UHGV virus genome: UHGV-0138922
From: a virus
Reading direction: 5' to 3' (one strand)
Length of the DNA stretch: 36,008 nt
Shown here: positions 12,101 through 12,959 of the stretch, in pieces
Layout of the letters: each line of letters opens with the position of its first letter
Numbering within the stretch: position 1 is the stretch's first letter
Notes under the pieces: model-generated
Database searches by the model: none
The model's input: the letters and a program-made list of their open reading frames with translations, nothing else
What the model was told of the DNA's origin: nothing
Program-made: the position numbers and the translations under genes

Positions 12101-12959
12101 TCTCTTTAAAGCTGGCGTTCGGATCACATGCACCGTTTGAATGTAGATCCATCTGGCGTACTTGTTTACGTACTTTCAGGAATGAATCAACGTTAATGTT
12201 TTCAATTGGTACGGATAAGCCATATTTTTCATTTGTTAGGTAGTGGAAAATCTGATCCACGCCGTTAGTGCTAGCCTCAATAGCATTGGTTTCAAGGTTA
12301 CGAATTTTTAAGCCCATAACATCGACTGCCACTTGGCTATTAGGCTGGAGAATATCAACACCAGCAGCAAGAGATTTATCATCACGGCGTAAAACAATAC
12401 ACATGGTTGCAATACCATTGCCTTTGTAGTTGTCGTTCCAGTCTGATCCTAAATGACGTTTTGCCAGTGACAAAGCGGTGTTAGGATTCTTACCCGTGCG
12501 AAACTCAACTTCTAAAACTTTCCGGTATTCTTCTTTAATGTTGCCTTTGTCCAGTACACCATCACGGATCGTCATGTTCTTACCAACAAGAACATTTTTG
12601 TTATCGATAAACAGTGCTTTGTAATGGTCGATTTCACCCTCGGCAATTGCGAAGATTTGCACTAACTTATTGTTTTCTTGCTTAGAAATTGCTTTGTAAA
12701 CGCAGATTGCACCTGTGCGGGTAGTACCGAAAAGAACGGGTAATACTGTCTTAGGATCGTTTGATGTTCCTAGTGTCACCGCATTATCTGGGCTTTGTAC
12801 TTTCGGTGTTTTTGGTGCGCCTACAGTGGAAGCGATCAAAGTCATTGCACCAGCAGCCATACCGATAGCGACTGCGGTCATAACCGAAAATGTTGCGGCT
12901 GCCGCCATCCCAGCCGAAGCACCAGCAATAACCGCGCCTACCAATACTTCAAATCCCAT
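9183..12959 (-). CDS. Central tail fibre / host-specificity protein (lambda J-like) with gpI-like hydrophobic N-terminal domain
   Basis: 1258 aa; C-terminal ~250 aa collinear with the lambda J receptor-binding region as I recall it (SGTLNNVTI..., DDHKFDRQIVIP..., IDMPAGKG...); N-terminus Gly/Ala-rich hydrophobic then APKTPKVQ...LPVLFG, resembling the gpI C-terminus. Confidence 0.8.
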   Translation of the reverse strand: MGFEVLVGAVIAGASAGMAAAATFSVMTAVAIGMAAGAMTLIASTVGAPKTPKVQSPDNAVTLGTSNDPKTVLPVLFGTTRTGAICVYKAISKQENNKLVQIFAIAEGEIDHYKALFIDNKNVLVGKNMTIRDGVLDKGNIKEEYRKVLEVEFRTGKNPNTALSLAKRHLGSDWNDNYKGNGIATMCIVLRRDDKSLAAGVDILQPNSQVAVDVMGLKIRNLETNAIEASTNGVDQIFHYLTNEKYGLSVPIENINVDSFLKVRKQVRQMDLHSNGACDPNASFKENLTNLMQTFGGVMFESFGRITLKLDAPDIVKHTFNEDNIMMGKVSLKTGGTNGYFNTINAMYQEPSIDYSEQMLRYPADAENDATIRQDGRIIAKDIEYRFVKSKAQIDKLASIERNKSRITQVISFMTTDAFTAEVWDVISVTYDELKLNNSLWRITAIDRSIDSGIAGMMTITATEYNSQVYTDLNYAANPDNRPSGLPDSMTVQKPTNFRIKATGETIYGKNVTLTWDAPEDFNRYGFQIDYRVSGSPNWIKLGQTSQQIFSVNALAKDRSYDYRVCAFGIIARSDWVELINQNPTVTYELPTPVIRIKNQGSTPGTFEGNDLIIEWENQQGLDVEINGETNKFSDLFEAYIIKVTNKAGKSIQYRTRDPESWTYTLDMNQFNGLSRQLTVEVSAKGYNNSESAPARLVAINPQHKPMKGFSARGGFNTAFVSWADDVEHDYAGSIIQYATDNTFSDARAVSTNSVSHTSFDLADGDYYLRAAHYDIFGMDDAVWSEPYFMPMKSTISWDDQDKEALEDLIGLQDRLDETIADAIAQAGANADAKIDAMHKQITTETGKTVQASADTLKSLITSGDQASATKIDQVKAELKGDIKSEVSASATTLKQAIATSEAASASKIDQVRVEMDGKIAGVNQEADVKIDALKGTINSKYNLAVNADGRVAGIHMSATNDPAQPTRIIFTADKIAVAPQTGSGVCPFGIEGNKVYLDNAMIRNAAIGTAQINDAAITTAKIGNAAINSAKIQDGAITNAKIVNGAIDNAKIGNYIQSSNWNGSTGWHINKNGSATFMNATVKGNITADSGTLNNVTINSSCVIKGMLEATQVKGDFVKVIGRKFPHRDAGVDNGYAGYPQGTVTVRVEDDHKFDRQIVIPAISFGGLRAREGSNNNTYYDTCRLIVRKNGSELYNRAYGGNTGLYSGVIDMPAGKGAVTLTFEVQSSAINNWTPSTWISDLTVMVTKKATTGITVS

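What the first reader, a model, noticed from the sequence alone, without database searches (positions are those of the whole stretch)
12650..12959. lambda gpI-like hydrophobic domain fused to the N-terminus of the J-like fibre
The first ~100 residues of the 1258-aa J-like protein (Gly/Ala/Met-rich hydrophobic stretch, then APKTPKVQ...LPVLFGTTRTG) resemble the C-terminal half of lambda tail assembly protein I rather than the J N-terminus. The preceding K-like gene is short (139 aa). This suggests an I-J fusion with loss or reshuffling of the I N-terminal domain.
Basis: partly seen in the sequence, partly recalled or inferred. Interest (0 to 1): 0.4.

Follow-up and report, generated by a model that had tools for sequence, protein, structure and literature searches.

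The report
Tail-tip protein with built-in gpI plug
The first ~100 residues of this E. coli prophage's central tail-fibre protein really are a relative of the virion-retained half of lambda protein I (the hydrophobic plug that seals the tail tip), but carrying that plug as part of the J-like protein is the usual arrangement in hundreds of phage lineages and has been described before, so the finding is real but ordinary.

Summary
Residues 1-47 of the 1258-aa J-like protein (window 9183-12959, minus strand) are a Gly/Ala/Met/Val-rich hydrophobic stretch. Residues 48-97 (APKTPKVQ...LPVLFGTTRTGAICVYKAIS) are significantly similar to the C-terminal half of lambda gpI: BLASTP E=4e-7, a family profile against the whole PDB E=1.6e-5, and 0 of 5000 shuffles reached the score. 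The lambda J N-terminus appears to line up only from about residue 96, though that short stretch is weak on its own. On that reading gpI-C plus gpJ are collinear with this single chain. It is not a frameshift artefact: the same ORF is present in 30 IMG/VR loci, and the junction and N-terminal quarter are covered in 54 complete E. coli genomes.

A recent "I-J fusion with loss of the I N-domain" is not shown. The joined form is family-wide (1522 clusters at 50% identity). In T5 pb3 the matching segment lies inside a single chain, and RcGTA/R4C "megatron" proteins carry an N-terminal iris/penetration domain. Iyer et al. 2006 already noted I-J fusions. No ubiquitin-like domain and no JAB domain were found in the window; the K-position gene is DUF6950.

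The most likely function, by analogy, is a tethered lumen plug and outer-membrane insertion module. Novelty: new member of a known kind. Interest is low.

The parts
12819..12959 (-). Residues 1-47 of the J-like protein: two hydrophobic Gly/Ala/Met/Val-rich segments, the counterpart of helices H1/H2 of lambda gpI (about residues 101-155) and of the megatron iris/penetration helices.
   Evidence: Composition and hydropathy. Aligned to gpI 119-155 by phmmer and by the family profile. pLDDT is below 50 in the monomer model, as expected for a segment that only packs inside a trimeric lumen.
12744..12818 (-). Residues 48-72: polar linker APKTPKVQSPDNAVTLGTSNDPKTV, aligned with gpI 156-196, which includes the lambda 'plug' residues 159-175.
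   Evidence: BLASTP alignment; profile alignment; lambda plug residues from PMC11101478.
12669..12743 (-). Residues 73-97: the LPVLFGTTRTGAICVYKAIS beta-strand motif, matching gpI LPVLYGEMRVGSRVVSQEIS and T5 pb3 IPVVYGVQKIPGIPIF.
   Evidence: Predicted as strands 75-77, 79-83 and 85-91 with pLDDT about 91, directly followed by predicted strands 98-118 of the J part.
12036..12668 (-). Residues 98-308: start of the J proper, a hub-domain region. AEGEIDHY...FIDNKNV lines up with gpJ SEGPIEG...LLNSTPV.
   Evidence: The profile aligns gpJ 21-55 to about residues 96-127 (weak, 2.1 bits) and gpJ 265-349 to about residues 226-298 (30 bits). AF2 model pLDDT is about 90. Foldseek: T5 pb3 E=2e-13, RcGTA g15 E=7.9e-5, lambda gpJ E=8e-4.
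9183..12959 (-). The whole 1258-aa tail-tip / central-fibre gene, with a lambda-J-type C-terminal receptor-binding domain (residues 1124-1258, nt 9186-9590).
   Evidence: ORF. Pfam Ig_GpJ_C E=4.4e-34, Phage_Tail_Tip E=3.5e-19, weak Phage-tail_3. 41% identity to the last 190 residues of lambda J. Same CDS called by PGAP.
12959..13378 (-). K-position gene, 139 aa, DUF6950. Its stop overlaps the J start (TAATG).
   Evidence: Pfam DUF6950 E=3e-12; no NLPC_P60 or Prok-JAB hit. Invariant D25-C26-N27, G87-D88 and H94 in five homologues. DUF6950 lies directly upstream of the J-like gene in distant relatives.
13425..14078 (-). Hub protein, L/g13-like, 217 aa.
   Evidence: Pfam Phage_phiJL001_Gp84_N E=8e-6; phrog_2048 tail protein E=5e-28; RefSeq names it 'DUF2163 / baseplate hub domain-containing protein'.
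14078..14638 (-). Distal tail protein, 186 aa.
   Evidence: phrog_1302 distal tail protein E=1e-16; weak match to the T5 pb9 B-domain.
14690..17122 (-). 810-aa ORF at the tape-measure position. By analogy, its C-terminus would sit on the plug.
   Evidence: Size and position. No Pfam hit. The role is inferred from synteny with lambda H and the annotated tape-measure genes of related phages.

Best explanation
The first ~97 residues of the tail-tip protein are the built-in counterpart of the virion-retained C-terminal half of lambda gpI (Iyer's 'TAPI-C').

Anatomy:
- Two hydrophobic helices, residues 1-47.
- A polar linker, residues 48-72.
- A short beta-strand segment, residues 73-97, which AF2 models with high confidence directly ahead of the first strands of the hub domains that follow in the same chain.

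Proposed mechanism, by analogy with lambda gpI, the RcGTA/R4C megatron iris/penetration domain and the T5 pb3 plug:
- Three copies sit in the lumen of the trimeric tip.
- They close the tail channel beneath the C-terminus of the tape-measure protein.
- After receptor binding by the lambda-J-type C-terminal domain, the hub domains swing open. The hydrophobic helices are released towards the outer membrane and probably insert into it.

Because the plug is tethered to J, this lineage has neither the ubiquitin-like delivery domain of gpI nor the JAB peptidase domain of gpK that removes it in lambda.

Shown here: the homology, the collinearity, the intact ORF, the breadth of the architecture, and the absence of Ubl and JAB. 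Inferred: the location in the lumen, the plug function and the membrane insertion.
For: Homology to gpI-C:
- BLASTP E=4e-7.
- The only PDB hits for residues 1-153 are gpI chains.
- phrog_32 (gpI family), C-terminal half, E=0.003. phrog_31 ('central tail fiber J'), positions 182-309, E=1.2e-7; lambda gpI itself also matches phrog_31 at positions 132-276.
- Profile of 30 family N-termini against the PDB: gpI E=1.6e-5 and the F2-pyocin gpI homologue 25vf_9 E=0.004.
- Shuffle z-score about 10.

Collinearity: gpI 119-214 aligns to residues 22-98, followed by gpJ 21-55 (weak) and gpJ 265-349. T5 pb3 262-560 spans the gpI-like strand motif and the hub region in one chain, E=1e-26.

Structure: in the model, the gpI-like strands (75-91) are predicted with pLDDT about 91, directly ahead of the J strands. 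The fold matches T5 pb3, phage Chi, JBD30, RcGTA g15 and lambda gpJ hub proteins.

Breadth: 1522 representative clusters at E<=1e-3. Among the best 150, 106 of the 134 full-length proteins carry a strongly hydrophobic 19-mer in the first 80 residues.

Synteny: tape measure - distal tail protein - hub - small K-position gene - large tip protein, in the window and in the fetched Vibrio phage, Pelagibacter phage and metagenomic relatives.

Absence of Ubl/JAB: no Lambda_tail_I or Prok-JAB hit in any of the 34 window ORFs scanned, nor in eight K-position proteins of relatives.

Function of the lambda, GTA and T5 counterparts: PMC10721106, PMC11101478, PMC12617516, PMC7296036, PMC10276861 and bioRxiv 10.1101/2022.09.20.507954.
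Against: - All functional statements rest on analogy; nothing here shows where the segment sits in the virion.
- The hydrophobic part (residues 1-59) is modelled with pLDDT below 50.
- Sequence similarity to RcGTA g15 is not significant on its own (E=0.48).
- The alignment of residues 96-127 to the gpJ N-terminus scores only about 2 bits on its own.
- Some relatives (P0039 in L040) start directly at the IPVVYG strand motif without any hydrophobic helices, so the helices are not indispensable to this type of tip.
- One lambda partner domain of gpI, FNIII-A of gpJ, has no detectable counterpart here.
Confidence: 0.75

Rival explanations
1. One reading: a recent, lineage-specific fusion of once-separate I and J genes, with deletion of the I ubiquitin-like domain and of the K JAB domain.
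For: Lambda, T1-like phages and F-pyocins keep I as a separate gene, and the window's C-terminal fibre and receptor-binding domain is lambda-J-like. Iyer et al. 2006 thought that JAB-less K versions might be degenerate prophage variants.
Against: The joined form is shared by relatives at 20-50% identity from E. coli, Citrobacter, Vibrio and Pelagibacter phages and from metagenomes. In the single-chain T5 pb3, the segment matching the gpI-like strands runs straight into the hub domain. There is no remnant of a Ubl or JAB coding sequence in the window. The ORF and the TAATG junction are conserved in 30 loci. So any fusion would be ancient and not specific to this phage.
Confidence: 0.15
2. Sequencing or annotation artefact: a missed frameshift or stop has merged two genes.
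For: None found.
Against: The same continuous frame across the junction appears in 30 independent IMG/VR loci, 26 of them with a complete ORF of 1248-1260 aa. The four shorter ones end at or beyond residue 599, at contig ends or at downstream stops. In 54 complete E. coli genomes a 90-99% identical match covers at least 80% of a 2.7-kb query that spans the junction and the first ~320 codons. PGAP annotates the identical 3777-nt CDS. Distant homologues have the same layout.
Confidence: 0.01
3. The N-terminal hydrophobic stretch is an unrelated signal peptide or membrane anchor, and the resemblance to gpI is compositional.
For: Gly/Ala-rich hydrophobic segments align easily by composition. The phmmer hit that includes this part is only E=0.013.
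Against: The significant similarity lies in the polar and beta-strand part (residues 48-97), not in the hydrophobic part: BLASTP with compositional adjustment gives E=4e-7, and 0 of 5000 shuffles reach the score. The order hydrophobic segment - polar linker - strand motif is the same in gpI and in the family.
Confidence: 0.03
4. The joined protein is a precursor. The DUF6950 protein, with its invariant Cys/His, or another protease cuts near residues 92-98, so the virion carries a free gpI-like peptide plus a J-like protein, as in lambda.
For: DUF6950 has invariant D-C-N, G-D and H positions and always sits just upstream of the tip gene. In lambda, gpK processes gpI (conference report).
Against: No cleavage motif or conserved Gly-Gly-type site is evident at the junction. 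RcGTA and R4C megatron and T5 pb3 are modelled as continuous chains. A relationship of DUF6950 to peptidases is not established: hhalign probability 1.4%, and the single-sequence model is unusable.
Confidence: 0.1

Closest known systems
Lambda gpI (tail tip assembly / 'insertion' protein; TAPI), C-terminal half, residues ~101-223 (PDB 8IYK, 8XCG, 9E7M)
   Same: The same order of elements: two hydrophobic Gly/Ala-rich helices, an APK..P.(V/I)Q polar linker and an LPVL(F/Y)G...G strand motif. The sequence similarity is significant. In lambda this part is the trimeric plug in the tip lumen under the tape-measure C-terminus. Its strands lace into the gpJ hub domains, and its helices are proposed to enter the outer membrane.
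   Different: In lambda it is a separate 223-aa polypeptide with an N-terminal ubiquitin-like domain, which gpK (JAB + NlpC/P60) removes. Here it is the N-terminus of the J-like protein, with no Ubl and no JAB anywhere in the window. The gpJ FNIII-A partner domain is not detected here.
RcGTA g15 and roseophage R4C 'megatron' protein, N-terminal iris/penetration domain (PDB 6TBA/6TEH)
   Same: A hydrophobic N-terminal helical module on the large tip protein that closes the tail channel and is proposed to insert into the outer membrane. The gene order is the same: distal tail protein - hub (the window's hub matches Pfam Phage_phiJL001_Gp84_N and is named a DUF2163 protein in RefSeq) - small protein - large tip protein. 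The fold of residues 60-308 matches g15, Foldseek E=7.9e-5.
   Different: Sequence similarity to g15 is not significant (E=0.48). The small K-position protein is DUF6950 here, against an NlpC/P60 peptidase in RcGTA. The C-terminal half here is a lambda-J-type central fibre and receptor-binding domain, not a fibre-binding domain.
T5 / DT57C baseplate hub protein pb3, plug and HDII-insertion (PDB 7ZHJ, 7ZQB, 8HQZ)
   Same: This is the best sequence and fold match for residues ~68-308: profile E=1e-26 and Foldseek E=2e-13, TM 0.6. The IPVVYG strand motif lies just downstream of the membrane-inserting plug tip (233-LFGL-236) and runs straight into the AEGEIDGF hub segment, the same order as here.
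   Different: pb3 also contains HDI (the L-like part) in the same chain. Its plug is a beta-hairpin-forming insertion, not two N-terminal hydrophobic helices. T5 has no K-position gene.
TAPI-TAPJ fusions in prophages noted by Iyer, Burroughs and Aravind 2006 (PMC1779556)
   Same: I-type sequence joined to the J protein, with a K protein that lacks the JAB domain.
   Different: Those were described as fusions of TAPI, which is defined by its Ubl domain. Here only the TAPI-C part is present. I could not check which proteins they meant.

Membership tests
Lambda gpI / TAPI family | N-terminal ubiquitin-like beta-grasp domain (Pfam Lambda_tail_I, PF06805, which covers gpI 14-97) | tested here: not met
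   No PF06805 hit on the J-like protein, on its first 120 residues or on any other window ORF scanned. Lambda gpI scores E=1e-28 as a control.
Lambda gpI / TAPI family | Gly-rich hydrophobic region followed by the TAPI-C domain, with sequence similarity to gpI ~119-214 | tested here: met
   BLASTP E=4e-7; profile against the PDB E=1.6e-5; phrog_32 positions 100-200 of 203, E=0.003; 0 of 5000 shuffles reach the score.
Lambda gpI / TAPI family | Separate gene between K and J | tested here: not met
   There is one continuous ORF. The K-position stop overlaps the ATG of the 1258-aa protein (TAATG).
Lambda gpI / TAPI family | Partner K protein with a JAB (MPN) peptidase domain | tested here: not met
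   The K-position protein is DUF6950 only, with no Prok-JAB hit at E<=1. Lambda gpK shows Prok-JAB + NLPC_P60.
Lambda gpI / TAPI family | Trimeric plug in the tail-tip lumen, contacting the tape-measure C-terminus | not testable with these tools
   This needs a cryo-EM or multimer model. Only a monomer model could be made, and residues 1-59 are of low confidence in it.
Megatron / pb3-type tip proteins with a built-in closure module (RcGTA g15, R4C, T5 pb3) | Hydrophobic closure/penetration module in the same chain as hub domains HDII-HDIV | tested here: met
   Hydrophobic residues 1-47 lie at the N-terminus of the chain. The hub-domain fold of residues 60-308 matches T5 pb3 (E=2e-13) and RcGTA g15 (E=7.9e-5).
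Megatron / pb3-type tip proteins with a built-in closure module (RcGTA g15, R4C, T5 pb3) | Gene order: distal tail protein - separate hub (HDI, phiJL001 Gp84_N/DUF2163 type) - small protein - large tip protein (the GTA type) | tested here: met
   The same order is seen in relatives.
Megatron / pb3-type tip proteins with a built-in closure module (RcGTA g15, R4C, T5 pb3) | Significant sequence similarity to RcGTA g15 or T5 pb3 | tested here: inconclusive
   T5 pb3 E=1e-26 for profile positions 68-299. RcGTA g15 only E=0.48 for positions 8-121.
Megatron / pb3-type tip proteins with a built-in closure module (RcGTA g15, R4C, T5 pb3) | NlpC/P60 cell-wall peptidase encoded between the hub and tip genes (RcGTA g14) | tested here: inconclusive
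   No NLPC_P60 Pfam hit. hhalign against lambda gpK aligns only the G-x-x-D-C motif, probability 1.4%. The AF2 single-sequence model has pLDDT 38. Conserved Cys and His residues exist.
Lambda J central tail fibre | C-terminal receptor-binding domain (Ig_GpJ_C) and tail-tip fibre region (Phage_Tail_Tip) | tested here: met
   Pfam E=4.4e-34 and E=3.5e-19. 41% identity to lambda J 949-1131. PDB gpJ fragments E=5e-53 to 5e-34.
Lambda J central tail fibre | Lambda-type N-terminal organisation: FNIII-A domain (PF24801), Phage-tail_3 above threshold, Ig_J domains | tested here: not met
   No FNIII-A or Ig_J hits. Phage-tail_3 scores only 19.9 bits against a cut-off of 23, whereas lambda J matches all of them. 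The NCBIfam lambda_TipJ model matches only the last 190 residues.

The most novel reading that the evidence does not exclude
The tethered plug plus a DUF6950 protein may be a distinct, ubiquitin-like/JAB-independent route for loading the closure module into a siphophage tail tip. DUF6950 has invariant Asp-Cys-Asn, Gly-Asp and His positions and sits at the K position in every enterobacterial, Vibrio and metagenomic relative examined. It would be a new processing or modifying enzyme acting on the N-terminal module of the tip protein, for example by cleaving it free or by modifying it for membrane insertion. Pelagibacter phages carry an HlyC-type lysine acyltransferase in exactly this slot, which hints at modification. 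If so, lambda's Ubl-JAB checkpoint would be a lineage-specific add-on to a more general 'K-slot enzyme acts on the plug' principle.
Probability: 0.12. Interest if true: 0.5.

Novelty: new member of a known kind. Interest (0 to 1): 0.2.

Why it matters
The practical value is for annotation and comparison.

- **Annotation.** Pfam's Lambda_tail_I model covers only the ubiquitin-like half of gpI. The structurally important half, the one that stays in the virion, is therefore invisible to routine annotation, and the N-termini of many large tip proteins go unlabelled. RefSeq simply calls this one 'phage tail tip protein'.
- **Comparison across phages.** Recognising that gpI-C, the megatron iris/penetration domain and the region around the T5 pb3 plug occupy the same place in one collinear module gives a common frame for tail-tip closure and outer-membrane insertion across siphophages.
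- **A natural control for lambda.** The co-absence of the Ubl and JAB domains when the plug is tethered bears on the proposal that gpK's JAB domain exists to remove the gpI Ubl domain. Iyer et al. 2006 had already made this point in outline.

No open question becomes newly testable through this locus alone.

Tried and rejected
- **Pfam and NCBIfam on residues 1-120.** Nothing was found, because no model covers gpI-C. This is not evidence against homology.
- **megablast of the tail module against phage genomes.** No match.
- **The search for homologous proteins, three searches.** Only 6-8 close hits each. The word index is swamped by the low-complexity hydrophobic N-terminus, so the third search, made with a profile, was wasted.
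- **Single-sequence phmmer against the PDB.** Only a borderline gpI hit (E=0.013). A profile was needed.
- **First local MAFFT run.** It timed out.
- **K-position protein.** BLASTP against lambda gpK found nothing. phmmer and a profile against the PDB gave only weak, probably spurious hits, zwilch and a GNAT acetyltransferase at E about 0.06-0.4. hhalign against gpK gave probability 1.4%. The single-sequence model had pLDDT 38 and was not used for a fold search. 'K-like = NlpC/P60' therefore remains unproven.
- **Literature search for DUF6950.** Nothing found.
- **Considered and rejected:** frameshift artefact, signal peptide, and recent lineage-specific fusion (see the rival explanations).
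Full report
**What is there.** The finding lies at the 5' end of a 1258-aa ORF on the minus strand (9183-12959). This is the last and largest gene of a siphophage tail module. The order is: an 810-aa ORF at the tape-measure position (14690-17122), a distal tail protein (14078-14638), a hub protein (13425-14078), a 139-aa gene (12959-13378), then the large tip protein. The stop of the 139-aa gene overlaps the ATG of the large gene (TAATG), and a GGGGGTGA Shine-Dalgarno-like sequence sits a few bases upstream. The window is an E. coli prophage. A 2.7-kb query spanning the junction matches 56 of 5426 complete E. coli genomes at 80-99% identity. PGAP annotates exactly the same two CDSs, naming them 'DUF6950 family protein' and 'phage tail tip protein'.

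**The observation.** Residues 1-47 contain 14 Ala, 7 Gly, 6 Val, 5 Met and one charged residue. They form two hydrophobic segments, followed by APKTPKVQSPDNAVTLGTSNDPKTVLPVLFGTTRTGAICVYKAIS. Several tests link this to lambda gpI:
- BLASTP against lambda gpI aligns residues 48-107 with gpI 156-223, 35% identity, E=4e-7.
- phmmer of residues 1-153 against all 177,635 distinct PDB sequences returns only lambda gpI chains, best E=0.013.
- The PHROG gpI family (phrog_32) matches through its C-terminal half, positions 100-200 of 203, E=0.003.
- A profile of 30 diverse N-termini of the protein's own family hits gpI at E=1.6e-5 (profile 20-95 to gpI 119-214). It also hits the gpI homologue of an F-type pyocin at E=0.004.
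- The polar part alone scores 64 by Smith-Waterman, against 21.5 +/- 4.1 for 5000 shuffles; none reaches it.

Pfam was silent only because its Lambda_tail_I model covers gpI residues 14-97, the ubiquitin-like domain, and nothing else.

**Collinearity with lambda I + J.** In the family profile, gpI 119-214 maps to window residues 22-98. The lambda gpJ N-terminus (21-55...LLSVIDAISEGPIEG...LLNSTPV) maps to residues about 96-127 (...LVQIFAIAEGEIDHY...FIDNKNV). That stretch is weak on its own. gpJ 265-349 maps to residues about 226-298 at 30 bits. On this reading the C-terminal half of gpI and gpJ are laid out end to end in this one chain, with the junction near residues 95-98. The J part up to this point is about 117 residues shorter than in lambda. 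That fits the absence of the gpJ FNIII-A domain, which Pfam finds in lambda J but not here.

**Not an artefact.** Thirty IMG/VR loci at 92-100% identity have the same frame through the junction, and 26 of them have a complete ORF of 1248-1260 aa. The four shorter ones end at contig ends or at stops beyond residue 599. Distant homologues have the same layout: phage DCP80, Vibrio phages henriette 12B8, 2.058.O and V6Aob, and Pelagibacter phages HTVC111P/112P.

**How common it is.** An exhaustive HMMER search with residues 1-480 found 1522 representative clusters (50% identity) at E<=1e-3 and 347 at E<=1e-10. Most of the best 150 align from within the first 70 query residues to their own N-terminus. 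Of the 134 that are full-length, 106 carry a strongly hydrophobic 19-mer in the first 80 residues. The PHROG family 'central tail fiber J' (phrog_31) itself contains an I-like region. Both the window's N-terminus (positions 182-309) and lambda gpI (positions 132-276) match it. A few relatives, such as P0039, begin directly at the IPVVYG strand motif without the helices.

**Structure.** An AF2 model of residues 1-308, built with the 30-sequence alignment, has mean pLDDT 79. Residues 1-59 are below 50, and residues 60-308 are around 90. The gpI-like strands (75-77, 79-83, 85-91) are predicted confidently and are directly followed by the J strands 98-118. Foldseek against the PDB gives:
- T5 pb3, E=2e-13, TM 0.6
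- DT57C hub protein
- phage Chi
- JBD30
- RcGTA g15, E=7.9e-5
- lambda gpJ, E=8e-4

By sequence profile, T5 pb3 residues 262-560 match at E=1e-26. That match starts at KFIPVVYGVQKIPGIPIF...AFAEGEIDGF, just downstream of the pb3 plug tip 233-LFGL-236. The tip protein is thus a mosaic. Its N-terminal hub region is closer to T5/GTA than to lambda, and it is joined to a lambda-J-type fibre and receptor-binding domain: Ig_GpJ_C E=4e-34, and 41% identity to the last 190 residues of lambda J.

**What the counterpart does in known systems (from the literature).**
- In lambda, gpI residues ~101/135-223 are in the virion as a trimer inside the tip lumen. Two hydrophobic helices (H1, H2), a plug (159-175) and beta-strands lace through the gpJ hub domains by beta-sheet augmentation.
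- The plug supports the tape-measure C-terminal coiled coil and blocks the channel.
- After LamB binding the hub domains move, the plug loosens, and H1/H2 disappear towards the membrane, where they are proposed to insert (PMC10721106, PMC11101478, PMC12617516).
- The N-terminal ubiquitin-like domain of gpI is reported to be cut off by gpK once gpI has joined the tip (conference report, PMC12908700). Iyer et al. predicted this in 2006.
- In RcGTA and roseophage R4C, the large tip protein ('megatron') begins with an iris/penetration domain. Its N-terminal helices form the constriction of the channel and are predicted to enter the outer membrane.
- In T5, the plug of pb3 closes the cone and refolds into membrane-anchoring hairpins.
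- The lambda structural paper already equated gpL + gpI + the N-terminal part of gpJ with T5 pb3. It also noted that RcGTA genes 13-14-15 parallel L-K-I-J.
- Iyer et al. [quoted passage not shown]

**Best explanation.** Residues 1-97 are the built-in form of the gpI-C / iris-penetration / plug module. It is a tethered closure element of the tail tip that most likely also supplies the first outer-membrane-inserting segment on opening. In line with the plug being tethered, no ubiquitin-like domain and no JAB domain were detected in the 34 window ORFs scanned. The eight K-position proteins examined are DUF6950 (six) or HlyC-type (two), and none has a JAB domain. The homology, the collinearity, the architecture and its breadth are shown. 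The location and mechanism are inferred by analogy.

The homology part is right. 'Fusion with loss or reshuffling of the I N-terminal domain' is not demonstrated, and as a recent event it is unlikely. I could not determine the direction of change. Given T5's single chain and the breadth of the joined form, the split lambda arrangement with its Ubl/JAB accessory may equally be the derived state. 'K-like' is true only by position. DUF6950 shows no significant similarity to gpK, although it has invariant D-C-N, G-D and H positions.

**Verdict.** The feature is real, and its homology to gpI is correctly recognised. It is an ordinary member of an architecture already described in the literature: megatron-type tip proteins and Iyer's I-J fusions. 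Novelty: new member of a known kind. Interest is about 0.2. The least conventional reading still open is that the K-slot enzymes (DUF6950 here, HlyC acyltransferase in pelagiphages, JAB+NlpC/P60 in lambda) all act on the plug module. I put that at about 12% probability.

Noticed in passing
L037 4414-4821 and L039 4624-5010 (Pelagibacter phages HTVC111P and HTVC112P): The gene in the K slot, directly upstream of the J-like tip protein with its hydrophobic N-terminus, is a clear HlyC-family RTX-toxin lysine acyltransferase (Pfam HlyC E=2e-12 and 3e-16, above the cut-off). This raises the possibility that the tip protein or its penetration module is acylated in these phages.
   Followed up: partly
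window 12959-13378 (-); also L003 4499-4915, L034 4601-4990, L036 4447-4854, L040 1587-2003, L041 3598-3999: DUF6950 proteins (129-139 aa) sit immediately upstream of the large tip gene in all enterobacterial, Vibrio and metagenomic relatives checked. Five aligned homologues share invariant D25-C26-N27, G87-D88 and H94. The fold and activity are unknown, and the link to NlpC/P60 could not be established. In the DCP80 GenBank record this ORF is not annotated.
   Followed up: partly
L040 2024-7066 (protein P0039), and representatives P0040, P0058, P0066, P0067: Some family members start directly at the IPVVYG strand motif, with no N-terminal hydrophobic helices. In L040 there is no small hydrophobic ORF between the DUF6950 gene and the tip gene. 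The helices are therefore dispensable, or replaced, in some lineages.
   Followed up: partly
window 23610-25613 (-): A 667-aa protein combines a prohead serine protease domain (Peptidase_S78, residues 40-162) and an HK97-type major capsid domain (Phage_capsid, residues 409-663) in one ORF.
   Followed up: no
window 18568-21846 (-): A 1092-aa protein with a T4 gp34-type long-tail-fibre trimerisation domain (Gp34_trimer E=8e-24) is encoded between the head-tail joining genes and the tail tube gene, an unusual place for a fibre gene. In a 97%-identical E. coli prophage, an extra 'receptor recognizing protein Gp38' gene lies between the tube and chaperone genes; it is absent from the window.
   Followed up: no
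window 1675-3369 (+), 5332-6831 (+), 6847-7128 (+): A large serine recombinase (Resolvase + Recombinase + Zn_ribbon_recom) is probably the integrase. There is also a T4-type UvsW helicase with its UvsW.1 partner (UvsW_N E=3e-35; UvsW-1 E=1e-21) in this ~35-kb temperate element.
   Followed up: no
window 17126-17814 (-): Two small ORFs upstream of the tape-measure ORF match tail assembly chaperone models: Phage_TAC_13 at 17506-17814 and a weak Phage_tail_T at 17126-17476. This is the expected G/GT-type pair. I did not look for a frameshift site.
   Followed up: no
L003 (Escherichia phage DCP80, PQ671644.1): The closest phage-database relative of the tip protein (39% identity) lies in a 141-kb record classified as Straboviridae/Tevenvirinae, yet it carries this siphophage-type module of tape measure, distal tail protein, hub, DUF6950 and tip protein. 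It is either an unusual genome or a mixed assembly.
   Followed up: no
window 9186-9590 (-), residues 1067-1258: The best solved-structure match for the receptor-binding end is not lambda J but 'A8 gpJ 713' (PDB 9WCA, E=5e-53, against E=5e-34 for lambda J). The receptor specificity may therefore differ from LamB.
   Followed up: no
L024 (IMG/VR), tip-protein ORF: One related prophage copy has a stop after residue 599 of the tip protein, well inside the locus. This suggests a disrupted tail gene in that element.
   Followed up: no
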